From IMG/VR virus record IMGVR_UViG_2534681999_000017: a stretch of 36,916 nt of DNA; one strand, 5' to 3'. Shown one piece after another: positions 1 to 33,007 of the stretch (position 1 is its first letter; every line of letters begins with the position of its first letter). Source of the DNA: a virus. Lineage: Duplodnaviria; Heunggongvirae; Uroviricota; Caudoviricetes. The notes under the pieces were generated by a model. That model was not told where the DNA came from. It was given only the letters and a program-made list of their open reading frames with translations, and ran no database searches. The position numbers were made by a program, and so were the translations under genes.

Positions 1-1932
1 AAGCGGAGGTAATACACCGTAAGAGCTGGAAAAACCGTGCAGAAGTGGAACTGGCCACACTAACGTGGGTGGACTGGTATAACAATCGACGATTGCTGGG
101 AAGGCTGGGCCATACTCCTCCGGCAGAAGCAGAAAAAGCTTATTATGCTTCCATCGGAAACGATGATCTGGCAGCCTGAGTTCACAGATAAAACACTCTC
201 CAGGAAACCCGGGGCGGTTCAGCAGATTATTCCCTGCATCCCCTGTCAGGGTGACACCCTGCGGCAGAGAGGAAACCGGCCAGTAAAGCCCCATGACATA
301 CTGGTTTGCCACCAGGTCGCCAGGTACTTTAAAACGACAACTGATTAAACCACCATTTTTCAGCAGTTCAGCACCAGTACCGGCATCATGATCCAGATAC
401 CAGGATGATTTACCTGTTTCCTTGGTCAGTTTCATTGCCTTACCACCTGTGCCTCCTGCATCACTGATAATTTCAGCTTTACCGCCAGCCGGCTCCCAGC
501 CCTGGGCTTTCAGATTTCCTTCTGACTCACTGACACGATAAGACAGCAGTGTTGTGGTTACTGCTTCAGTTTCTGAAGGTGACGGCACTGGTGCTTCAGT
601 TTCAGAAGATGGAACATCGGCTTTTACTGTGGTTCGCCCCGCATGAGTCAGAACTGCCGTGGCCAGACGGTCGGAAATAATCCCACGACGTGCCCATGAA
701 CTGAAATGGCTGGCCCGGTCCGCAGATGTCCAGGTGGCGGCACTGTTACGCCACGTTGAGCCGTAATAACCAATGGATTCAATATCCGGGTCTTCTGCCG
801 GATTGTTGGTGGGTACATTCGCGTCATTTTCATCTGTCATTAATGGAACGAAATGAATGTTTTTATCTGTTTTGTTTTTGTAGCCGCCATAGATTGCCTG
901 GTATGCCGGTTCATTTTTCTGTTTCCAGAAATACGTGGTATCGCCACAAATCCACGGAACGCCAGCAGCACTGCCACCGGTACACTGTTCCGCCTGTTCA
1001 GCCAGGTCTGCGCGGAATTTTTCCACCATCGCCAGAAACAGCGCGGAATGCTCCGTCGGCTTCGCATCAATATCAAACTCGCCCTGCATCCACACCACAG
1101 CAAGCAGGCGGTTTTTCGGGTTCTTCGCCAGTGCCGCTTTTGTCCGGCTGATTAAGTCCTTATACAGCGGCTTATCCACACCCCAGCGGGCTGAGTCCTC
1201 TGAAGCACCCGTGCTGTCACTGTACGTGCCGTCAGCACCCGCCGTGAATGCAGAACCACCACGGCAGCAGGGAACCAGCAGAATCCCCGCATCTGCCGGA
1301 ATAAACGGCAGCAGTTTTTTGGCAATGTGAAGCCCCTGACCCACGGTGCCATATTGCCCTTTAGCCACATCCGCTTTCGGGTGATTTTTTCCACTCATAT
1401 CCTGCACATCATGCAGACAGTGGTCGGCCAGAATGATGTCGTTATACTGACAGGCTTTACCTCCCGGCGTGACTGTACTGCGACGGGCTAACTGCATAAT
1501 ACGCGGTTCGGGGCGGTCATATGTCTCCGGCAGTGGCAGACCTTCACCGTAAGCCATACCGTTTGACTGACCAGCAAGAACCACCACGTAATACCAGGAA
1601 GGGGAGCTGGAAGCAGTTTCATTTCCTGACGGACGGGTATGTGTTTCAGCATTATCCCAGTCTGACGGTTCAGCAGTACCGGCAACATCAGCACTTAACG
1701 GAATGACCGCACCAATACCCGCTCCGGTAATTTCCACACTCGGATCACCGGATACTGGCCTTACCCACAGGCAATCCCGTGTATTAAAACTGATGAGACA
1801 GTCAGCAAATGTCATTCCTCCTTTTGTTTCGGCCGGAGGAAAGGGAGCCTCAAGAAATGCCGCTGTACCACCGGAAACTTTAACAGTAAAGTTTCCGGGC
1901 ATTGATGATAGTTGAACCCATTTGGACGTCAT
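1..1932 (-). CDS. nanS: NanS-type sialate O-acetylesterase (SGNH/SASA hydrolase) with N- and C-terminal extensions; 3' end unresolved, frame open to window start
   Basis: ATG at 1932 with AGGAACAGG 9 nt upstream and an in-frame stop at 1963-1965; 644 codons without a stop. Contains VVLAGQSNGMAYGEGLPLP, HDVQDM, QYGTVGQGLHIAKKLLPFIP, LVPCCRGGSAFTAG, WMQGEFD, CGDTTYFWK, SHFSSWARRGIISDRL, co-linear with E. coli NanS/YjhS as recalled. Confidence 0.8.
   Translation of the reverse strand, partial: MTSKWVQLSSMPGNFTVKVSGGTAAFLEAPFPPAETKGGMTFADCLISFNTRDCLWVRPVSGDPSVEITGAGIGAVIPLSADVAGTAEPSDWDNAETHTRPSGNETASSSPSWYYVVVLAGQSNGMAYGEGLPLPETYDRPEPRIMQLARRSTVTPGGKACQYNDIILADHCLHDVQDMSGKNHPKADVAKGQYGTVGQGLHIAKKLLPFIPADAGILLVPCCRGGSAFTAGADGTYSDSTGASEDSARWGVDKPLYKDLISRTKAALAKNPKNRLLAVVWMQGEFDIDAKPTEHSALFLAMVEKFRADLAEQAEQCTGGSAAGVPWICGDTTYFWKQKNEPAYQAIYGGYKNKTDKNIHFVPLMTDENDANVPTNNPAEDPDIESIGYYGSTWRNSAATWTSADRASHFSSWARRGIISDRLATAVLTHAGRTTVKADVPSSETEAPVPSPSETEAVTTTLLSYRVSESEGNLKAQGWEPAGGKAEIISDAGGTGGKAMKLTKETGKSSWYLDHDAGTGAELLKNGGLISCRFKVPGDLVANQYVMGLYWPVSSLPQGVTLTGDAGNNLLNRPGFPGECFICELRLPDHRFRWKHNKLFLLLPEEYGPAFPAIVDCYTSPPTLVWPVPLLHGFSSSYGVLPPL
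3..179 (+). mobile_element. IS3-family (rve/DDE integrase-core) transposase, C-terminal fragment cut by the window edge
   Basis: Frame ending at TGA 177-179 reads AEVIHRKSWKNRAEVELATLTWVDWYNNRRLLGRLGHTPPAEAEKAYYASIGNDDLAA, a typical IS3-family OrfB C-terminus (W-x-DWYNN-RR ... PP-AE-E-YY). Confidence 0.45.
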
Positions 1933-6201: not shown

Positions 6202-6635
6202 TCCCCCTTCATATCAGCATAAAAAATCATCGGATGTCTGCTTCCGTCCGGCAGGGTGATTTTCACGGAAAGCGAAAGGCGAGCATGCCCCACACGCATG
6301 GCATGACATACCACGGATGTGGCAGCACCGCTTTTATGCAGCCACGCCAGCGCTTCATCAGCATAGGCCTGTGCACGGCTGACCACGGAGGACAGCGTCT
6401 TTTCACGGCTTAACAGCCAGAGACGGGAGCCAACGGGGCGCTCCCGGAAACTGTCTCCCCACCATCCCCGACGGTCACGGGTGCCGTCAGGGATTTCATC
6501 GGAATCCAGCGCCCGCCTGTCCGTAAACAGTGAAATAATGACCGCAGTCAGCAGGCTGTTATCCGTCAGAAGATCTGCGCCGTTCAGTTGCAGGGAACCG
6601 CAACCCTGATCCCAGACGACAGCAATATCAGCCAT
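6198..6635 (-). CDS. Baseplate protein, Mu gp46 / P2 gpW-like
   Basis: Start MADIAVVWDQ at 6635 with GGGAGGA upstream, overlapping the stop of the upstream gene; the ORF-track start at 6848 is an over-extension. Confidence 0.7.
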   Translation of the reverse strand: MADIAVVWDQGCGSLQLNGADLLTDNSLLTAVIISLFTDRRALDSDEIPDGTRDRRGWWGDSFRERPVGSRLWLLSREKTLSSVVSRAQAYADEALAWLHKSGAATSVVCHAMRVGHARLSLSVKITLPDGSRHPMIFYADMKGE

Positions 6636-7242: not shown

Positions 7243-8356
7243 TGAATTTAATCCCCTGTTTTTTCATCTGTGCCCGCACGAAGGCGTCCACGTCACCCGC
7301 ATTTCCGCTTCCGCTGTTTCCCGGCTCTGCCGGAACAATAAAGCCGTCACGGGGTGCCAGAATCAGACGGGTGGTTTCGCCGTGATTTGCATCCAGCGAA
7401 AACTCCACCTGACAGACAAGAAGATCACGCTCTTCCACTCCGGTGCGGGGAGCCGTGACAGCCGTCAGCAGGTTGATATCCCACAACTGGCCGTTCTCCC
7501 GAAACCAGTGCCGCACGGTGGCTGTCAGGCGCACAGAGCGGGCAACCGCCCGGCGCATTTCCCGGACAGCCCTCTGGCGTGCACCGTCTGCATCAACAGC
7601 ATGATCCGCCAGCACAATTTTCGGTCTGTAACGGTGGATGGCACTGTCTGTCACCGTACCAACGGGTGCGGCCAGCGTTCCGGCTGTCAGTGCATCCCCG
7701 GCATGACCACCACCACGCCCGTGCCCCCGTACACGGTATTCACTGTGGCGCAGACGGTGATCCACGTTGTGATCCAAATCCAGCAGATTTTCGCCCAGCG
7801 TCAGCGTGTCGCCACGCTGACTGCCGGCCTGAGTGAAAACCAGTTCACCGGCGGCATTACTGGTTACCAGGACGCCTCTGTGTCTCGCGGCCCGTGTCAG
7901 CGCATCTGCCACGGTTTCTGAGTTTTCCAGTGTGAAGGTGGAAAAGGGCCGGGCTGCCGTTGCATCATTTACCTGCCAGCGCACCGTGACCCCGAACGGA
8001 GCACACAAATCTGAAGCAATGTGCTCCAGCGTGCGGTTCCTCCACTGGCTGCCCGGATGAATGGCTGAACAGTCCACCAGGTCACCGGTTTTATCCCGTC
8101 CGCTGAGCGTGATCTGAAAACGCGTGGCGCTGATGCGCTGCCGGACCTGATCCAGCCAGCCAGTGATCACAGGCTGACCGTCAATGCGCAATTCCAGAGA
8201 CTGACCGGCACGGACGGATGACGGAAGGCGTACACCGGGCATCATTACCCCCAGTTCAAAGGAGCCCGCCAGATGTTCAAGAGAGCGACGAACACTCACC
8301 GTCAGCCAGCCGGAAAAAATCTCACCGCCCAGATACAGTTCAACCCTGCTGCTCAC
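7232..8356 (-). CDS. Baseplate hub protein, Mu gp44 (P) / P2 gpD-like
   Basis: 374 aa; size and position downstream of the N-like gene. Confidence 0.65.
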   Translation of the reverse strand: MSSRVELYLGGEIFSGWLTVSVRRSLEHLAGSFELGVMMPGVRLPSSVRAGQSLELRIDGQPVITGWLDQVRQRISATRFQITLSGRDKTGDLVDCSAIHPGSQWRNRTLEHIASDLCAPFGVTVRWQVNDATAARPFSTFTLENSETVADALTRAARHRGVLVTSNAAGELVFTQAGSQRGDTLTLGENLLDLDHNVDHRLRHSEYRVRGHGRGGGHAGDALTAGTLAAPVGTVTDSAIHRYRPKIVLADHAVDADGARQRAVREMRRAVARSVRLTATVRHWFRENGQLWDINLLTAVTAPRTGVEERDLLVCQVEFSLDANHGETTRLILAPRDGFIVPAEPGNSGSGNAGDVDAFVRAQMKKQGIKFNDE

Positions 8357-25914: not shown

Positions 25915-26340
25915 TCAGAAAAGTGGCGGTTGCGTTCTTGCCAGATGCAGACGGCGCTGTTCGCGTATGACGGTATAAATCTGGGTTTCTGACATCCGGT
26001 AATGGCGGCGAAGGGATTCAATTTTCTCGCCCCGGTCCCAGCGCGAAAATATCTCATTGTTTCGCAGCTCGGCAAAGAGAGATTCCCCGACCGGCAGGTA
26101 ATAACCCCGTCCGCCCATATAGGCTGCCTGAGCCGCAGCCACCTTGCGTGCCAGTTTACCGGCCAGTACCGGCTCAATCCCCTGACGCTGAAGTTCTGCG
26201 CCGGTGACTTCAACCAGTTCTGACAGGGTCCGCGGCCAGTTCTTTTTGAGAACATCATCAGGGATGTCATCAAGGCGGTCGATAAGGGCGTGCAGTTGCT
26301 CACTGTCACCACCAAACATGCTCATCTGAGTTTCTGCCAT
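25915..26340 (-). CDS. Mor/C-family transcriptional activator (sole family member in window)
   Basis: 141 aa, C-terminal HTH …YRMSETQIYTVIREQRRL… resembling Mu Mor/C as recalled; immediately upstream of the lysis and late genes. Confidence 0.75.
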   Translation of the reverse strand: MAETQMSMFGGDSEQLHALIDRLDDIPDDVLKKNWPRTLSELVEVTGAELQRQGIEPVLAGKLARKVAAAQAAYMGGRGYYLPVGESLFAELRNNEIFSRWDRGEKIESLRRHYRMSETQIYTVIREQRRLHLARTQPPLF

Positions 26341-26409: not shown

Positions 26410-26919
26410 TTAACGGGGAAGTGATTTTTCATACTGCCTGCAAACGGCGTCATACCCCATCAGCGTGCGTTCGGGCATTCCCATCGCGGCCAGCATTTTG
26501 CGGCGGTGCCATCGCTTGAGACGCTCCAGCACATCTGAGGCCAGGGCGGGGTGTTGCTCCAGCCACTGCCAGTTTGCCACACCTTCGCCGCCGTTCTGCG
26601 CGGCCGTCTGCGATTTCACCCAGCGGTTAAGGGCGGTTTCCGCACCATCGGTGATAAAGCCCTGCCGGTGCATCACCTTCCAGATGGCGCGAATTTTGGC
26701 GGTCACCGTACCCGGTTTTAAGGCCCGGTTAACCGGGTTCTGACGCACTTTAAAACCGCGTTTTTTGAAAACATCCAGCACGCGGGATAACTCATCCGGT
26801 GACATATCCCGGCAGCTGGTTTTGCCGGTGGCTGCCAGCAGCGCGGATGTATAAGTCTCATCATCCAGGGCAAGCTCGCGCTTTGCCACATGAATGGCGG
26901 ATATCAGTTTTCCTCTCAT
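26410..26919 (-). CDS. gemA: GemA-like early protein (Mu gp16, DUF1018-like)
   Basis: 169 aa, MRGKLISAIHVAKRELALDDETYTSALL…; recalled resemblance to the GemA family, last gene of the early operon. Confidence 0.6.
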   Translation of the reverse strand: MRGKLISAIHVAKRELALDDETYTSALLAATGKTSCRDMSPDELSRVLDVFKKRGFKVRQNPVNRALKPGTVTAKIRAIWKVMHRQGFITDGAETALNRWVKSQTAAQNGGEGVANWQWLEQHPALASDVLERLKRWHRRKMLAAMGMPERTLMGYDAVCRQYEKSLPR

Positions 26920-27212
26920 ACCGTATTTACCTTTTTACGGACATGGAAAGCCTTTTCTGCCTCATCCCACCGGGCATGGTGTGTTGGTGGAATAATCATT
27001 ATGTGCCAGCCATCTCTGGTTGTTATCCGGCAGAAAAACTCACCGCTATATAACACAATGGCCTGCTGAATGAGCGCATCAGCCGCCCGTTCAACCGGAT
27101 GTCTTTTATCAAAAAAGCAGATGATTTTTCGACATAACCACCGGGTAATAACAAATGCGCCGAAAAAGGATGTGATATATAAGCACCAGAACAACAGAGA
27201 ACTATTGTCCAT
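26916..27212 (-). CDS. Hypothetical membrane protein
   Basis: 98 aa, N-terminal TM helix LLFWCLYITSFFGAFVITRWLC; lower-GC region. Confidence 0.4.
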   Translation of the reverse strand: MDNSSLLFWCLYITSFFGAFVITRWLCRKIICFFDKRHPVERAADALIQQAIVLYSGEFFCRITTRDGWHIMIIPPTHHARWDEAEKAFHVRKKVNTV

Positions 27213-27399
27213 TATCTTTCTCCTTATTCACTCTTCTGCGGCATTCGGCACAGTCATCAGGGCTTTCAAATGTATCCGGCTCGCGATTATGAGCCAGATA
27301 TAACCACCGTCCACATATACTGATATTTTCGCCTGTTTTAAAAAAATGATGCTTCCTGGCCATTAGTGGCCGCGCCCATCCAGCGGGTAGACTATTCAT
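27202..27399 (-). CDS. Hypothetical small Cys-containing protein
   Basis: 65 aa with ICGRW…DDCAEC; overlaps neighbours. Confidence 0.35.
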   Translation of the reverse strand: MNSLPAGWARPLMARKHHFFKTGENISICGRWLYLAHNREPDTFESPDDCAECRRRVNKEKDNGQ

Positions 27400-27766
27400 T
27401 TGCTTTATCCTCCATGCTGGACAGAATCATATGTATTAATGTCGGGCGTGGAGATATACGCATTTCATTAAGCGTCTGAAGGGCAGCAACAGCTGCCTGT
27501 TTATCGGTGCCTTTGGCAATTTCAGCAAGAGAATGCACAATCCATAACGGACTTAACGCCACGGCTGAATCCAGAATCATGTCATCCATAATAATTTCTG
27601 GCATATCCCGTTTGTCACATTCTTTATCCATAAAAGAAACGATTTTTTCTGCATCTTCCGGTTTCATGCCTCCGGCGATGAGAATTTTACGATATTCATA
27701 AGACGATCTTAATTCAATACTCATATTCATCTCCTGTAACTCTGACAAGGTCGTGATTTTTCTCAT
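27392..27766 (-). CDS. Hypothetical acidic protein
   Basis: 124 aa, net acidic; early operon, lower-GC block. Confidence 0.4.
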   Translation of the reverse strand: MRKITTLSELQEMNMSIELRSSYEYRKILIAGGMKPEDAEKIVSFMDKECDKRDMPEIIMDDMILDSAVALSPLWIVHSLAEIAKGTDKQAAVAALQTLNEMRISPRPTLIHMILSSMEDKANE

Positions 27767-27948
27767 TTATGTTTTCCAGTAATACGGATATATATGTCGA
27801 TAAGAAGATTCATAATAAACAGGAAGAGCGACATCCTGATAAAGAACCATATATCCGGCATCATGGACAGATTTCCTGTAACCGCAAATATAAAACCAAC
27901 CCCCCACACAGGAACGATAATTGCGAAAAAAACAAGTCTCCTTATCAT
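27763..27948 (-). CDS. Small two-TM membrane protein
   Basis: 61 aa, two hydrophobic helices (LVFFAIIVPVWGVGFIFAV and FFIRMSLFLFIMNLLIDIYI) and basic C-terminus. Confidence 0.45.
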   Translation of the reverse strand: MIRRLVFFAIIVPVWGVGFIFAVTGNLSMMPDIWFFIRMSLFLFIMNLLIDIYIRITGKHK

Positions 27949-28496
27949 GTCGTTAACTCCCGTAATACAACATCTTCGGCAGTCCGACGACGGTGATAAA
28001 TAAAACTCACCGTGCCCTCGGATAATTCAAATTTCTCGCCGATTTCCCTAAAGGTAAGACGCCGTGGTGATTCAGCATCCCGTAATTCACGAATAAGATG
28101 AACATCATCGTCAGGTATGCGGGTAAAAGGCAGTAATTCTCCGTATTTTTTCATGCTTACGCCAATATATCGCGCCCGATTGTGGACAGAATCCCGGTCT
28201 CGCCCCAGATATTCTCCTATTTGCTTACCGGTCATCGTCCTGGCATTTTTTCGGATAAATTTATCTTCATCAGGTTTAAATCTGAGGCGTTTGCATTTGA
28301 GCAACTCCGGGTAAGTACCGCGTAATAAAACAATCCGGTTATGTACACCCCAGAAACTTCTTTTTATCCTGACAGCAATATCCTTAACCGGGGTGGATGG
28401 ATAAAGCGCAATCAGCAGCGCATCTTCTTCAGGTGTCCATGCGCGAACATGAGCGGGTGCACGGCCTTTTCTCCCCATGGGTTGTAATTTCATCAT
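27945..28496 (-). CDS. Putative DNA-binding regulator with three HTH-like repeats (Myb/GcrA-like first repeat)
   Basis: 183 aa; WTPEEDALLIALYPSTPVKDIAVRIKRSFWGVHNRI, TGKQIGEYLGRDRDSVHNRARYIG, TFREIGEKFELSEGTVSFIYHRRR. Confidence 0.5.
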   Translation of the reverse strand: MMKLQPMGRKGRAPAHVRAWTPEEDALLIALYPSTPVKDIAVRIKRSFWGVHNRIVLLRGTYPELLKCKRLRFKPDEDKFIRKNARTMTGKQIGEYLGRDRDSVHNRARYIGVSMKKYGELLPFTRIPDDDVHLIRELRDAESPRRLTFREIGEKFELSEGTVSFIYHRRRTAEDVVLRELTT

Positions 28497-28499
28497 GCA

Positions 28500-29015
28500 T
28501 CACCCCCCGACTCGCTTTTCGGCAGCATAAAACTCATCAGACAGAATTTCGGTCATTTTCCGTTTTGCGGAATCATCTTCGCACTGAAGGTAAATAACAT
28601 CGTCAACGCAGAACCACTTCACGGGACCATGCAATATTGCTGAGAAGTCAATACCCAGCCAGAACAACAGTGCATCGGTTCTGGCATACGTGACGGGCGA
28701 ATATTCACGCCACAGACTGTTAAGTTCGTCAGAGGCAACGCGCAGGGCTTTGGGAATACGTGATGTGCGCGGTGTGCAGCTCCAGCCATTCGACGCAGTC
28801 GGTTTTCGCCATAAGTCGCGATGAAAAGGATATTTGTCATCCATAAAGCGCAGCCCTTTAAAACAAAAGCCACTGATACCGGATACAAATACCGACCGGC
28901 ACGCAACATTCAGCACGGCCTCAAGGCGTTTTGCCTCATCCTTAACTTTCTGGCAGTCCTGCTGATATTTTTGCCACGCGGCCAGCGCGGAAGGGTTTGA
29001 TGTTTTAAAGAACAT
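28500..29015 (-). CDS. Hypothetical protein
   Basis: 171 aa, start overlaps upstream stop by 1 nt. Confidence 0.5.
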   Translation of the reverse strand: MFFKTSNPSALAAWQKYQQDCQKVKDEAKRLEAVLNVACRSVFVSGISGFCFKGLRFMDDKYPFHRDLWRKPTASNGWSCTPRTSRIPKALRVASDELNSLWREYSPVTYARTDALLFWLGIDFSAILHGPVKWFCVDDVIYLQCEDDSAKRKMTEILSDEFYAAEKRVGG

Positions 29016-29548
29016 TACGCCACCTCCGCAGATATCCCGGCAGGTGCAGCCGTCCGGTCAACAATCAGGTAACGCAGAACATGTTCGGTGATATTCCAGC
29101 CGCTTAAACCGCAGATAATGACACCCAGGCGAATGTCGATATACGCCATCACAAACTGGGGCACGCCTTCTTTCATGGCCTGCTCATCAACTTCAACCAC
29201 CACATAAACGGTTTCGCAGGTCAGTACGCCCTGAGCAAATTCCCACGCCATCGACGGAATATCATGCCCCTCAATCCACGGCAGGGATTTTCTGAAGCTG
29301 CACCACTGAACATCATCAGCCGCACCTTCCTGGCTGCATTTGCGACGAACCGGCTGCACCGGGCGGGGACGCGGAATATCATAAAAACCGTTACATTCCG
29401 TCAGCACCCCGGCATCGACCGCATCACGCAAAAAATAAACCATCGAGGATGGCGGCATATTCATTTTTTCAGCCAGAATGCCGCAGGTCAGACGCCCGTA
29501 AATACTCAGCCAGTTTTTAACCCCTTCAAGCACTTTTGCATCAATCAT
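29015..29548 (-). CDS. Hypothetical protein, possible N-terminal winged-helix
   Basis: 177 aa; N-terminus …LSIYGRLTCGILAEKMNMPPSSMVYFLRDAVDAGVL…. Confidence 0.5.
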   Translation of the reverse strand: MIDAKVLEGVKNWLSIYGRLTCGILAEKMNMPPSSMVYFLRDAVDAGVLTECNGFYDIPRPRPVQPVRRKCSQEGAADDVQWCSFRKSLPWIEGHDIPSMAWEFAQGVLTCETVYVVVEVDEQAMKEGVPQFVMAYIDIRLGVIICGLSGWNITEHVLRYLIVDRTAAPAGISAEVA

Positions 29549-29551
29549 GAA

Positions 29552-30094
29552 TTATTCCTCCGTCAGCGCCACATATTCAGAATGTTTAATTTCCTGGCAT
29601 TCTTCAGGAATACACCCTTTTATTTCCCTGCCATAAGCGCCTACTTTAAACACCACGCACAGGGCATCACGGGAGAGCGACGGGGTCCACCAGGAGTCCG
29701 TGTTAAACATGGAGGGGATTCTCATTACCCCCAGCTTTTCACAGAGCCAGACAAGGAAATCAGGACGCTTTCTTAACTCACGTTCAGCGGTTTCAATCAT
29801 TGCGGCAATCGCCGGACCTTCAGGGCATGACTCATCAGGTCTGGCAATAAAGCACGGTCCGTCCCCGATAAAAGCCACATCATCGCGCTTACGCCAGCCC
29901 GCAGGCAGAGCACCAGAAAAATAAAACTCACTGATTACGTCCATGGCAAACGGCTTTAAGCGCAATCCGGCAGCGCCTGTATTTTTCAGTAATGCCCGAA
30001 GAATACTGTTGCGTAGCGGTAAAACAGTCTGTTGATATTTGGTGAAATATTTATTTGTCTGCACACGGTCTAATTTGAAATAAAAATATGCCAT
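29552..30094 (-). CDS. Hypothetical protein
   Basis: 180 aa; ATG at 30094 with AAGGA upstream; first gene after gam. Confidence 0.5.
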   Translation of the reverse strand: MAYFYFKLDRVQTNKYFTKYQQTVLPLRNSILRALLKNTGAAGLRLKPFAMDVISEFYFSGALPAGWRKRDDVAFIGDGPCFIARPDESCPEGPAIAAMIETAERELRKRPDFLVWLCEKLGVMRIPSMFNTDSWWTPSLSRDALCVVFKVGAYGREIKGCIPEECQEIKHSEYVALTEE

Positions 30095-30191
30095 ATATCC
30101 TGTTCCTTATTTTCAGTTTACAGGCGCAGGCAGTCCCCTGACGCGAGCGCCATAATTAAAACGAAGTGATATTTAATTGATTAATGCGGTG

Positions 30192-30722
30192 TTATTTATT
30201 CAGTCCGGCGTCCTGTTCAAAAGGCTCGACATAAAAACTTTCAGCGCCTTTATTCACCTTAATACCGGCAATCCCTTTCACCGCATCCGGCTCCGCCAGG
30301 ACCGCTTCCTTGTTCACTTCCTCTTTCGTGCGGATAAAACGCTCAAGGCCCATACGGCGCAGCATTTCAATCACACCTTCCACATCACGACTGACGCTGC
30401 ATGATGGATTCCCCAGTCGCCATGACACCGTTCCGGTGGTCAGATTGGCAGTTTTGGTTTTGCCGCCGTTCGTCAGCTCATCACGGTTGGTTTTGCACCA
30501 GTCCTGAATCCCCTTAAAAAGCACTTTGATTTCTTTTTTAAGGTTTTCAATCTGCGGCGTATAACGGGCGGTGATTTCTGCCACTTCATCATTCATCGCT
30601 GTTTCCAGGCGCAGCGCCTCTCGCTGAATATCGCCCAGGGTGCGGATATCGCGGCTGACCTCTTCACGGGTCTGCGGTGCCGCCTCTGCTGCGGCCTTTA
30701 ATTTTGTAACGCGTTTTGCCAT
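30192..30722 (-). CDS. gam: Host-nuclease inhibitor Gam (Ku-like DNA-end binding)
   Basis: 176 aa; …GDIQREALRLETAMNDEVAEITARY…WCKTNRDELTNGGKTKTANLTTGTVSWR…GLERFIRTKEEVNKEAVLAEP…, close to Mu Gam as recalled. Confidence 0.9.
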   Translation of the reverse strand: MAKRVTKLKAAAEAAPQTREEVSRDIRTLGDIQREALRLETAMNDEVAEITARYTPQIENLKKEIKVLFKGIQDWCKTNRDELTNGGKTKTANLTTGTVSWRLGNPSCSVSRDVEGVIEMLRRMGLERFIRTKEEVNKEAVLAEPDAVKGIAGIKVNKGAESFYVEPFEQDAGLNK

Positions 30723-31850: not shown

Positions 31851-32078
31851 TTAGCTGACTTGTTTCGCACCAACAGAACGGCATATTCCGCTGTAAACGT
31901 CTGTCGCACCTTCGCGATCAAGTCCGGCAGATATCACCATTCGTGTGCGGTCATTAAATTCAAAAAGTAAATCGCCACATTCTTTATTTTCGGCCAGTGA
32001 AATCACCTTCACGTTATCGAAATTAACCAGGTAAAAGCGTCCGTAAATATCAGGAATATAAAATACCGCCATAATCAC
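31851..32078 (-). CDS. Hypothetical small early protein (positional equivalent of Mu kil region)
   Basis: 75 aa immediately downstream of B; assignment by position only. Confidence 0.35.
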   Translation of the reverse strand: MIMAVFYIPDIYGRFYLVNFDNVKVISLAENKECGDLLFEFNDRTRMVISAGLDREGATDVYSGICRSVGAKQVS

Positions 32079-33007
32079 ACCTGTGAGAGTAATTCAGGGT
32101 TGGTATAAACCTCTTTAAAGGCCGCATTAATATGTTTTTCTGTCAGCGCCGCACCTTCACCGCTGGCGGTGAGCCACGCCTGGTTAAGCGTATGTGTCAG
32201 AACGCGTAACGCTCCCGGCTTTTCAGCGATAGCCTGCATGACGGCCAGCTCGGCCTCACCACTGATACCCCATGCCCTGGCAATGGCCAGCACATCCGCC
32301 TTTTTGGCCTTGCGAAGTTGTTTTGTACGGGCAAGACGGCTGAACAGGCGCGATAAATCATCAAAGGCGCGGCGTCCACCTTTAAACAATCCGCGCGGGT
32401 TACCAATAAGCACCATCCCGATCCCCGTGGCGTCCTGAATTGCCCGGAGTTGCTCCAGACCGTCAATACCAAGATGATCCGCCTCATCCACAATCACTAG
32501 TCCACGCGTTCCCATCAGGCGACGGCGGATGGCGCGGGATAATGCCCCTTTGTTCGCGCGGGTGTAATCAATCCCCAGCGCATCGGCCAGCTCCAGCAGA
32601 CACTCCGTGACGCTGGAGTGCGCGGGTGACAGGGTGATCATCCAGGTGTTTGGTTGCTCCTGGCAGTAATTACGGGCGGTGGCCGTTTTACCTACCCCCG
32701 GCACGCCCACAATGACGTTAATACAGCCCATCAGGCGAACCGCCTGAAACAGTGCGCGCAGCTCCTGAACTGTCTGCGTTTCCACAAACTGCGGCGGTTC
32801 CGGCAGTGCGCTTTGTTTATTCCAGTTCTCATACCAGGAACGCAGGGAAGCAGCCACAGCGGCGTTATCGCCTTTATATTTCCCCTTGCGGAAAGCCGAT
32901 AATGTGCCGTCGGAAATTCCCGCCTCTCTGGCGATGGCATACTGCGTCAGTACGCCGCCATCAATAAGTTCATCAATGGTCTTGATTACATCGTTAATAT
33001 CAGTCAT
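32075..33007 (-). CDS. B: MuB-like AAA+ target-DNA activator / transposition ATPase
   Basis: 310 aa, N-terminal HTH and Walker A VGVPGVGKT, Walker B LVIVDEADHL; directly downstream of A. Confidence 0.9.
   Translation of the reverse strand: MTDINDVIKTIDELIDGGVLTQYAIAREAGISDGTLSAFRKGKYKGDNAAVAASLRSWYENWNKQSALPEPPQFVETQTVQELRALFQAVRLMGCINVIVGVPGVGKTATARNYCQEQPNTWMITLSPAHSSVTECLLELADALGIDYTRANKGALSRAIRRRLMGTRGLVIVDEADHLGIDGLEQLRAIQDATGIGMVLIGNPRGLFKGGRRAFDDLSRLFSRLARTKQLRKAKKADVLAIARAWGISGEAELAVMQAIAEKPGALRVLTHTLNQAWLTASGEGAALTEKHINAAFKEVYTNPELLSQV

What the first reader, a model, noticed from the sequence alone, without database searches (positions are those of the whole stretch)
28500..30094. 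Three unknown proteins of about 175 aa coupled directly downstream of gam
Three similarly sized ORFs (180, 177 and 171 aa) follow gam with gaps or overlaps of 3 nt or less. The middle one has a winged-helix-like N-terminus; none matched a family I could recall. This is the semi-essential early region of Mu-like phages, where host-modulation and anti-defence genes sit, so they are candidates for an uncharacterised early module.
Basis: inference. Interest (0 to 1): 0.5.

Follow-up and report, generated by a model that had tools for sequence, protein, structure and literature searches.

The report
Mu gp11/gp12 homologues plus DUF5420-like gene
The three genes are real early genes of a Mu-like prophage: two are clear counterparts of phage Mu's still-uncharacterised gp11 and gp12, and the third is a divergent member of a known family of unknown function (DUF5420), so the finding is largely ordinary, though nobody knows what these proteins do.

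Summary
Three minus-strand ORFs of 180, 177 and 171 aa exist at the stated coordinates. They have strong Shine-Dalgarno sites and are under purifying selection.

Spacing within the trio is 3 nt and a 1-nt overlap. The first ORF is 97 nt from gam, not 3 nt or less, and that spacer holds a conserved hairpin.

- **ORF2** is the orthologue of Mu gp11 (67% identity; Pfam Gp11_C, 136.6 bits).
- **ORF3** is the orthologue of Mu gp12 (53% identity; family PF26885).
- **ORF1** is absent from Mu. It is a divergent relative of Pfam DUF5420, which sits in the same position in SfMu and in other Mu-like prophages.

AlphaFold2 models, cross-hits in BFVD and a full-length profile alignment suggest that ORF1 and gp12 share one fold. 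The ORF1 model has no match among solved structures.

Across related loci gp11 is the constant element. DUF5420 and gp12 come and go even beside near-identical gp11 genes, and gp12 never occurs without gp11.

No function is published for any of the three. They look like non-enzymatic accessory early proteins that act on host or DNA transactions. This is a new member of a known, uncharacterised kind, of modest interest.

The parts
29552..30094 (-). ORF1, 180 aa: a divergent DUF5420-like early protein. It is absent from phage Mu and is an optional cassette between the gam-distal hairpin and gp11.
29015..29548 (-). ORF2, 177 aa: orthologue of Mu gp11. It has a probable winged-helix N-terminal domain (about residues 1-60), a variable linker, and a Gp11_C domain (residues 90-167). 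It is acidic (pI 4.9).
   Evidence: 67% identical to Mu_11, E 2e-82. Pfam PF25754, 136.6 bits. 222 homologues, and all 120 listed carry PF25754. Domain layout is visible in alignment A5. Only weak HTH-type hits. pI. No relative in the PDB by sequence profile.
28500..29015 (-). ORF3, 171 aa: orthologue of Mu gp12. Its start overlaps the ORF2 stop by 1 nt (TAATG). The predicted fold has the same order of elements as ORF1.
   Evidence: 53% identical to Mu_12, E 2e-64. PHROG 2314. Homologues carry PF26885. AF2 model pLDDT 84, pTM 0.77. hhalign against the ORF1 family gives 159 collinear columns at E 0.0026, against E 0.44-0.56 over 17-34 columns for controls. The two models share BFVD hits. gp12 is always preceded by gp11, 48 of 48 loci.
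30121..30161 (-). Conserved non-coding element in the 97-nt gam-ORF1 spacer: TTTTAATTAT followed by a hairpin, GGCGC(30151-30147)...GCGCC(30127-30123). It lies about 25 nt upstream of the ORF1 start codon.
   Evidence: Nearly invariant in Mu, SfMu-like and O157-type prophages, whichever gene follows it. 95.5% of cells are paired, with one compensatory C-G to U-A pair and three wobble changes. No Rfam match. Folding energy is no better than shuffled sequence, z 0.16. No promoter or terminator call in the spacer.
30192..30722 (-). gam (host-nuclease inhibitor), the upstream landmark.
   Evidence: Pfam Phage_Mu_Gam, E 1.5e-41. 57% identical to Mu Gam.
27945..28496 (-). Next gene downstream, 183 aa: a basic SANT/Myb-like multi-HTH protein, starting 3 nt after ORF3.
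   Evidence: PHROG 323 'transcriptional regulator, D5-like', E 1e-58. Sub-threshold Sigma70_r4 and Myb hits. RefSeq names the counterpart in strain JMF1 (L003) 'SANT/Myb-like DNA-binding domain-containing protein'. pI 10.1.

Best explanation
The three ORFs are ordinary, tightly packed genes of the semi-essential early operon of a Mu-like prophage. This prophage type is present in about 4% of complete E. coli genomes; the strains listed are largely O157:H7, STEC or bovine isolates.

**Shown**
- ORF2 and ORF3 are the orthologues of Mu gp11 and gp12.
- ORF1 is a divergent DUF5420-type protein occupying the slot between gam and gp11. That slot is filled in SfMu and in many Salmonella and E. coli Mu-like prophages, and is empty in Mu.
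- gp11 is the constant element. DUF5420 and gp12 are optional cassettes on either side of it.
- gp12 never occurs without gp11, and its start overlaps the gp11 stop.
- ORF1 and gp12 very probably share one alpha/beta fold. The ORF1 model has no relative among solved structures, and neither family has one by sequence profile.

**Inferred**
- The genes are transcribed from the early promoter with gam.
- The conserved hairpin in the 97-nt spacer marks the start of a separately controlled translational or mRNA-stability unit.
- Within that unit, the short gaps, the overlap and the Shine-Dalgarno sites embedded in the preceding gene couple translation.

**Most likely mode of action (inference only)**
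These are small non-enzymatic binding proteins made early in lytic growth.
- gp11 would act as an acidic winged-helix adaptor or regulator, with gp12 as its dedicated partner.
- The DUF5420-fold proteins would act as exchangeable accessory factors. They would modulate a host process or host defence, or assist Mu replication and transposition.
For: - ORFs, spacing and Shine-Dalgarno sites.
- Purifying selection.
- Orthology to Mu gp11 and gp12 with the same order and the same 1-nt overlap.
- Gp11_C domain.
- Link from ORF1 to DUF5420.
- DUF5420 directly after gam in SfMu and in E. coli and Salmonella prophages; at matching map positions in Yersinia phages and Haemophilus SuMu.
- Census of 74 non-identical gp11 loci: DUF5420-gp11-gp12 32, gp11-gp12 22, gp11 alone 12, DUF5420-gp11 8.
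- Mixed architectures within gp11 clusters at least 90% identical.
- gp12 preceded by gp11 in 48 of 48 loci.
- DUF5420 followed by gp11 in every Mu-like locus with enough flank. The stop-to-start gap is 3 nt wherever the frames are intact.
- Shared fold: same order of secondary-structure elements; hhalign E 0.0026 over 159 columns against controls at E 0.44 and 0.56; the top five BFVD hits of ORF3 recur among the top twelve of ORF1.
- No solved relative.
- No enzyme, defence or NCBIfam family hit.
- Conserved hairpin.
Against: - No experiment or paper bears on function.
- The binding-protein and host-modulation idea rests on negative evidence (no catalytic family, small size) and on the pattern of cassette gain and loss.
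- gp11 occurs alone in 12 of 74 loci, so it does not need either partner.
- The linkage of gp12 to gp11 could reflect common descent within a narrow group of enterobacterial phages rather than function.
- The shared-fold claim is indirect. The hhalign probability is only 11.5%. The cross-hits have TM-scores of 0.31-0.45. The two models could not be superposed directly.
- Support for the winged helix is sub-threshold.
- The hairpin is so conserved that covariation is thin: one compensatory pair, probably a single event.
Confidence: 0.6

Rival explanations
1. Counter-defence island. ORF1, gp11 and gp12 would each inhibit a host immune system or nuclease, alongside Gam (anti-RecBCD). The downstream multi-HTH protein would act as an aca-like regulator.
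For: - Expressed early and next to gam.
- DUF5420 and gp12 are gained and lost between near-identical prophages.
- DUF5420 also turns up in early operons of unrelated temperate phages.
- ORF1 has the most relaxed pN/pS, 0.39.
- An HTH gene follows the trio.
- No cellular homologues and no solved structure.
Against: - No similarity to any known anti-defence protein was seen in the libraries searched, and no anti-defence library was available.
- None of the three is strongly acidic like a DNA mimic: pI 7.5, 4.9 and 8.7.
- gp11 is nearly universal among enterobacterial Mu-like phages, which fits a core phage function better than strain-specific counter-defence.
Confidence: 0.25
2. Replication or transposition helper. 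The gp11-gp12 region would correspond to the classical, unassigned 'arm' (amplified replication of Mu) function of the semi-essential region, with gp11 binding DNA through its winged helix.
For: - Position between gam and gemA, as in Mu.
- gp11 is conserved in every related locus examined.
- Weak HTH signals.
- The mapping of arm between gam and lig/gemA is from my own memory of the older Mu literature. It was not found in the paper library (one search returned nothing useful).
Against: - gp11 is acidic (pI 4.9), which is unusual for a DNA binder.
- No link to any replication or recombination family.
- DUF5420 proteins occur in non-transposable phages.
Confidence: 0.15
3. Toxin-antitoxin-like pair. 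gp11 (acidic, winged helix) would neutralise gp12 (basic), and perhaps ORF1 as well.
For: - Start/stop overlap between gp11 and gp12.
- gp12 is never found without gp11, 48 of 48 loci, whereas gp11 occurs alone.
- Opposite charges.
- gp12 is disrupted in SfMu while gp11 is intact.
Against: - The genes sit inside the repressor-controlled early lytic operon, and no own promoter was detected.
- No PADLOC or Pfam toxin or antitoxin hit.
- DUF5420 proteins occur without gp11 in other phages.
Confidence: 0.08

Closest known systems
Phage Mu gp11 (Mu_11, AAF01088; formerly E10-E12) and gp12 (Mu_12, AAF01089; formerly E13)
   Same: ORF2 is 67% identical and ORF3 53% identical over the full length. The order after gam is the same, the non-coding spacer of about 97 nt carries the same hairpin, and the two genes overlap by the same 1 nt. 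Both Mu proteins are annotated as hypothetical.
   Different: The window has an extra 180-aa gene between the spacer and gp11. Mu keeps only a short sequence resembling the 3' end of that gene (CTGAGGAATAA before the gp11 ATG).
Pfam DUF5420 (PF17457), for example SfMu ACQ86_gp11 and Mannheimia phage AVV61_gp11
   Same: Same size. Same N-terminal YFK motif and same C-terminal EIK(H/K)SE(F/Y)(V/I)ALTEE motif. In SfMu and the enterobacterial prophages it has the same slot after gam, with a 3-nt gap to gp11. A profile built from ORF1 retrieves true DUF5420 members.
   Different: ORF1 itself does not reach the Pfam model at E<=1. Relatives 38-70% identical to ORF1 score only 15-15.6 bits against a cutoff of 26. 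ORF1 therefore belongs to a divergent sister clade. In the Mannheimia phage the DUF5420 gene is neither next to the annotated nuclease-inhibitor gene nor followed by gp11.
Shigella phage SfMu early region (NC_027382)
   Same: Same gene order: gam, DUF5420, gp11-like, gp12-like.
   Different: ORF1 is only 40% identical to the SfMu protein. In SfMu gp12 is split into two fragments and is not annotated.
Type II toxin-antitoxin pairs and acr-aca anti-defence operons (functional analogies only)
   Same: Small, tightly coupled genes that include an HTH protein. One partner is dependent on the other. Cassettes turn over.
   Different: No sequence or family relationship. The genes lie inside a lytic early operon. 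No toxicity or inhibition data exist.

Membership tests
Pfam PF25754 Gp11_C / Mu gp11 orthologues (ORF2) | Score above the gathering threshold (27 bits) on the Gp11_C model | tested here: met
   136.6 bits, E 3.5e-40, residues 90-167 matched to model positions 1-78 of 78.
Pfam PF25754 Gp11_C / Mu gp11 orthologues (ORF2) | Full-length similarity to Mu gp11 and the same position after gam | tested here: met
   67% identity over 177 aa, E 2e-82. Synteny.
Mu gp12 family (PF26885) (ORF3) | Full-length similarity to Mu gp12, immediately downstream of gp11 and overlapping it | tested here: met
   53% identity over 168 aa, E 2e-64. All 46 homologues carry a precomputed PF26885 assignment. The model is not in the local Pfam copy, so ORF3 was not scored directly. 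gp11 precedes gp12 in 48 of 48 loci.
Pfam PF17457 DUF5420 (ORF1) | Score above the gathering threshold (26 bits) on the DUF5420 model | tested here: not met
   No hit at E<=1 for ORF1. Its relatives P0004 (70% identical) and P0014 (38%) score 15.6 and 15 bits.
Pfam PF17457 DUF5420 (ORF1) | Transitive homology: a profile of ORF1 relatives retrieves bona fide DUF5420 proteins over the full length, with shared terminal motifs | tested here: met
   Exhaustive hmmsearch found 27 representative proteins at E<=1e-3. Of those scanned, P0185, P0187, P0189, P0193 and P0196 score 40-98 bits on PF17457. Motifs are visible in alignment A4. NCBI names P0014 'DUF5420 family protein'.
One superfamily uniting DUF5420 and gp12 | Same fold and detectable profile similarity | tested here: inconclusive
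   Same order of secondary-structure elements. hhalign E 0.0026 over 159 columns, but probability only 11.5%; controls give E 0.44 and 0.56. Overlapping BFVD hit lists, with cross-hit TM-scores of 0.31-0.45. Direct superposition was not possible.
Winged helix-turn-helix DNA-binding domains (ORF2 N-terminus) | Significant match to a winged-helix family, or a winged-helix fold in a model | tested here: inconclusive
   Only sub-threshold hits, all of the HTH or winged-helix type: HTH_10 at E 0.17; HTH_20 in 5 of 18 homologues, best E 0.012; PCI, WH4_Lhr and HTH_CodY.
Known anti-phage defence proteins (PADLOC) | Match to a PADLOC model | tested here: not met
   No hits for the three ORFs at E<=1.
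Known anti-defence proteins (Acr, Ocr/Ard, Gad, Tad and others) | Homology to a characterised inhibitor, or demonstrated inhibition | not testable with these tools
   No anti-defence library was available. The Pfam, PHROG and PDB searches returned no such names.
Type II toxin-antitoxin systems | Toxicity of one partner that is neutralised by the other, and autoregulated expression from its own promoter | not testable with these tools
   Only circumstantial: gp12 always occurs with gp11, and no promoter-like site was found on the coding strand.

The most novel reading that the evidence does not exclude
DUF5420 and the gp12 family form one superfamily with an alpha/beta fold not yet seen in any solved structure. 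Together with the winged-helix protein gp11, they make up a widespread, uncharacterised early host-takeover or counter-defence system of Mu-like and other temperate phages, including the paradigm phage Mu. The conserved hairpin downstream of gam would be its dedicated post-transcriptional control element.
Probability: 0.2. Interest if true: 0.6.

Novelty: new member of a known kind. Interest (0 to 1): 0.3.

Why it matters
Mu is a textbook phage, yet the genes between gam and gemA in its semi-essential early region still have no assigned function.

This analysis places the three ORFs precisely: gp11, gp12, and a DUF5420-like gene that Mu has lost. It shows that gp11 is the constant core and that the two flanking genes are probably paralogous, exchangeable cassettes. 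It also points to a conserved RNA hairpin upstream of them.

That gives a concrete, small set of deletions and interaction tests in Mu or SfMu. If a function were found, whether counter-defence or replication support, it would apply to the roughly 4% of complete E. coli genomes that carry this prophage type and to many Salmonella prophages.

As it stands, this is an annotation refinement rather than a discovery.

Tried and rejected
1. **The positional guess that ORF1 = gp11 and ORF2 = gp12.** BLASTP found nothing. The correct pairing is ORF2 = gp11 and ORF3 = gp12.
2. **ORF1 and ORF3 as close paralogues.** Pairwise BLAST gave E 0.5, and a shallow-profile hhalign gave probability 0.2%. Only the deeper profile gave a full-length weak match.
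3. **An obligate three-gene module, or gp11 always needing a DUF5420-fold partner.** Rejected: 12 of 74 loci have gp11 alone.
5. **Defence or NCBIfam annotation.** None.
6. **A conserved neighbour of DUF5420 outside Mu-like phages as a functional clue.** The neighbours differ: a CII-like protein, a RusA- or clamp-like protein, and unknowns.
7. **Rfam family, terminator or promoter for the spacer hairpin.** None. Its folding energy is no better than shuffled sequence.
8. **Genome-contig scan for DUF5420.** It returned only one marginal locus, because confirmation uses the divergent first sequence. An earlier attempt failed for lack of a conserved pattern. The afdb50 library was unavailable.
9. 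**Literature.** Eight full-text searches found no characterisation of Mu gp11, Mu gp12 or DUF5420. One query was badly chosen and uninformative. Durairaj et al. 2023 (PMC10584680) describe a 'dark' prophage family found near gam (their component 3,314). I could not check whether it is the same family.
Full report
**1. The observation**

The window carries a Mu-like prophage read on the minus strand. The order is MuA/MuB (32075..33007 is MuB), gam (30192..30722), the three ORFs, a multi-HTH gene, several small genes, GemA (26410..26919), Mor (25915..26340) and a lysozyme.

Spacing, read from the sequence:
- ORF1 stop, then ttc, then ORF2 ATG: a 3-nt gap.
- ORF2 stop and ORF3 start share one base (TAATG).
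- ORF3 stop, then tgc, then the ATG of the next gene: a 3-nt gap.
- Each start has a GGAGG or AAGGA box 7-10 nt upstream, lying inside the end of the preceding gene.

The claim that the trio follows gam with 3 nt or less is wrong. There are 97 non-coding bases between gam and ORF1. Mu has the same arrangement, with 98 nt between gam and gp11.

The ORFs are genuine genes. Against 15-24 natural variants of 85-99% identity, pN/pS is 0.39 (ORF1), 0.18 (ORF2) and 0.21 (ORF3), compared with 0.08 for gam.

The region is present at 80% coverage or more in 214 of 5,426 complete E. coli genomes. The strains listed are largely O157:H7, STEC or bovine isolates. In all the listed records the three genes are annotated 'hypothetical protein'. 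It is also 95-96% identical to Mu-like insertions in two Stx phage records.

**2. What the proteins are**

*ORF2* is the orthologue of Mu gp11.
- It is 67% identical over 177 aa, E 2e-82.
- It matches Pfam PF25754 'Phage Mu Gp11 C-terminal domain' at 136.6 bits on residues 90-167 and PHROG 1949.
- It has 222 homologues in E. coli and Salmonella. All 120 listed carry PF25754.
- The alignment shows a conserved N-terminal domain (about residues 1-60), a variable linker and the C-terminal domain.

*ORF3* is the orthologue of Mu gp12.
- It is 53% identical, E 2e-64, and matches PHROG 2314.
- Its homologues carry PF26885.

*ORF1* has no counterpart in Mu.
- It matches PHROG 2260 but no Pfam model at E<=1.
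- Its family is small: 14 clusters in the word-indexed search and 27 representatives at E<=1e-3 among 1.84 billion proteins in the exhaustive profile search.
- Five of the more distant representatives I scanned score 40-98 bits on Pfam DUF5420 (PF17457).
- NCBI already names a Salmonella relative, 38% identical, 'DUF5420 family protein'.
- The family shares an N-terminal YFK motif, a PD-RRYKEG-like loop and a strikingly conserved C-terminus, EIK(H/K)SE(F/Y)(V/I)ALTEE.

ORF1 is therefore a divergent DUF5420-type protein that falls below the Pfam threshold.

**3. ORF1 and gp12 probably share one fold**

The AlphaFold2 models are confident: ORF1 pLDDT 88.3 and pTM 0.79, ORF3 pLDDT 84.1 and pTM 0.77.

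Both show the same order of elements:
- a short N-terminal strand,
- a long helical segment,
- a beta-hairpin,
- two further strands (low confidence in ORF3),
- two or three helices,
- another beta-hairpin,
- a short strand,
- a C-terminal helix.

Other evidence:
- A profile-profile comparison of the broadened ORF1 family (27 sequences) with the gp12 family (41 sequences) gives one collinear alignment of 159 columns, E 0.0026. The HH-suite probability is only 11.5%.
- Control comparisons of either family with the gp11 family give E 0.44 and 0.56 over 17-34 columns.
- In BFVD, the top five hits of ORF3 (A0A7G8Z7V2, A0A6G5YHC7, A0A6G5YGU2, A0A8S5PYN2, A0A0K0N751) all recur among the top twelve hits of ORF1. 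Their Foldseek probabilities there are 0.41-1.00, although the TM-scores are modest at 0.31-0.45.

I could not superpose the two models directly, so I rate this as probable rather than shown.

**4. Anatomy across related phages**

I fetched loci anchored on each of the three families from IMG/VR and annotated them with the window's own proteins and family profiles.

Architectures among 74 non-identical loci that contain gp11 and have enough flanking sequence:

| Architecture | Loci |
|---|---|
| DUF5420-gp11-gp12 | 32 |
| gam-gp11-gp12 (as in Mu) | 22 |
| gp11 with neither partner | 12 |
| DUF5420-gp11 without gp12 | 8 |

Further points:
- One locus (L033) has two DUF5420 genes in tandem.
- Clusters of gp11 proteins at least 90% identical contain mixed architectures. 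One cluster contains all four. The flanking genes have therefore been gained or lost repeatedly.
- gp12 was preceded directly by gp11 in 48 of 48 non-identical loci.
- In Mu-like loci, DUF5420 is followed by gp11 in every locus with enough flank. The gap is 3 nt wherever the frames are intact.
- A prophage about 94% identical to the window (strain JMF1, L003) lacks ORF1. In its place is a 14-codon ORF, MKYVYIVINNVVGK, whose start and end resemble the two ends of a DUF5420 gene.
- Mu itself has CTGAGGAATAA just before the gp11 ATG, which resembles the last codons (L-T-E-E-stop) of DUF5420 genes. This suggests, but does not prove, that Mu lost the gene. The same bases also serve as the gp11 ribosome-binding site.
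- Among isolated phages, SfMu has gam, DUF5420, a gp11-like gene and then a disrupted, unannotated gp12.
- Yersinia phages vB_YpM_3, vB_YpM_23 and Tongde and Haemophilus SuMu encode DUF5420-like proteins. Where the record runs in Mu orientation, the gene lies 6-7 kb from the left end.
- The Mannheimia phage 3927AP2 has a DUF5420 gene in its early region. It is not next to the annotated nuclease-inhibitor gene and is not followed by gp11.
- DUF5420 proteins also occur outside transposable phages. One example is a lambdoid-type early operon: repressor, CII-like gene, DUF5420, TraR-like gene, Q. Their neighbours are not consistent.

**5. The spacer**

The 97-nt gap downstream of gam contains a 41-nt element: TTTTAATTAT followed by a hairpin, GGCGC...GCGCC (window 30121-30161, minus strand).
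- It is almost invariant in Mu, in SfMu-type prophages and in this prophage type.
- It is present whether DUF5420 or gp11 follows, and also in prophages where no Gam homologue was detected upstream.
- It is better conserved than the flanking genes. The two Gam proteins, for comparison, are only 57% identical.
- In 17 distinct variants, 95.5% of cells are paired. There is one compensatory C-G to U-A change (four sequences, probably one event) and three wobble substitutions.
- It matches no Rfam family and is not called as a terminator or promoter.
- Its folding energy is not exceptional, z 0.16.

My inference is that it is an RNA element controlling processing, stability or translation of the distal part of the early transcript. 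It may also act as a conserved boundary at which cassettes are exchanged. Neither idea is tested.

**6. Function**

Nothing is published. The Mu GenBank record lists gp11 and gp12 as hypothetical. A 2021 review-type analysis describes the semi-essential region as coding for small proteins of uncharacterised function (PMC8705779). My other searches found nothing.

The three proteins match no enzyme, defence or NCBIfam family. They are not DNA mimics by charge: pI 7.5, 4.9 and 8.7.

Apart from Gp11_C, the only Pfam signals for gp11 homologues are sub-threshold winged-helix or HTH families.

My best reading is that these are non-enzymatic early accessory proteins. gp11 would be a conserved acidic winged-helix adaptor or regulator, gp12 its dedicated and translationally coupled partner, and the DUF5420-type protein an exchangeable paralogous cassette. 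They would act on a host process or defence, or on Mu replication.

I assign the following confidences:
- about 0.6 to the anatomical and evolutionary account,
- about 0.25 to a specific counter-defence role,
- about 0.15 to a replication-helper ('arm') role,
- under 0.1 to a toxin-antitoxin-like pair.

**7. Verdict**

Novelty is 'new member of a known kind'. The modestly new points are:
- the probable DUF5420-gp12 fold relationship,
- the pattern of gp11 as a constant core with optional flanks,
- the apparent loss of DUF5420 in Mu,
- the conserved hairpin.

Interest is 0.3.

Noticed in passing
window 30121-30161 (minus strand); Mu L001 6358-6405: A 41-nt non-coding element lies downstream of gam: TTTTAATTAT plus a GGCGC...GCGCC hairpin. 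It is more conserved than the flanking genes across Mu, SfMu-type and O157-type prophages, whatever gene follows it. It has one compensatory pair and three wobble changes, matches no Rfam family, and is not called as a terminator or promoter.
   Followed up: partly
L003 3098-3142 (E. coli JMF1 prophage); Mu L001 about 6405-6423: Where ORF1 is missing, a 14-codon ORF (MKYVYIVINNVVGK) keeps the start and end of a DUF5420 gene. Mu retains CTGAGGAATAA before the gp11 ATG, which resembles the last codons of DUF5420. This suggests Mu lost the gene by deletion.
   Followed up: partly
L130 3538-4105 (Shigella phage SfMu, record 7403-7970): The unannotated gap after the SfMu gp11-like gene contains a gp12 homologue split into two fragments, which is a probable pseudogene.
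   Followed up: partly
L033 4001-5130: One Mu-like viral contig carries two DUF5420-family genes in tandem ahead of gp11 and gp12.
   Followed up: no
window 27945-28496 (minus strand); Mu L001 5482-5781: The 183-aa basic multi-HTH protein after ORF3 (SANT/Myb-like; PHROG 323, 'D5-like regulator') has a shorter relative in Mu. That relative is gp9/E8 (E 5e-5), and it lies upstream of gam instead of downstream.
   Followed up: no
window 27000-28000: A low-GC patch (0.42, against about 0.56 for the prophage) holds several small genes between the HTH gene and GemA. They include a 61-aa hydrophobic protein, a 124-aa acidic protein (PHROG 1988) and a 65-aa cysteine-containing ORF. This patch is probably a further set of exchangeable cassettes.
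   Followed up: no
L083 and L089, downstream of gp11 (about 3467-4225 in L083): In some prophages an unrelated ORF, 252 aa as called from the longest start, occupies the gp12 position. This is another alternative cassette at the same slot.
   Followed up: no
window 29264-29776 (plus strand): A 170-aa ORF runs antisense across the ORF1/ORF2 junction. I take it to be a shadow ORF of the conserved minus-strand genes.
   Followed up: no
window 1-120: Read by eye in frame 3, the left edge encodes ...TWVDWYNNRRLLGRLGHTP. This looks like the C-terminus of an IS3-family transposase, so the window seems to begin inside an insertion sequence rather than at the prophage end. I did not verify this with a tool.
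   Followed up: no
literature: PMC10584680: Durairaj et al. 2023 describe a 'dark' prophage protein family (their component 3,314). It has a common fold, no PDB hit, and gam among its genomic neighbours. I could not check whether it corresponds to the DUF5420 or gp12 families.
   Followed up: no
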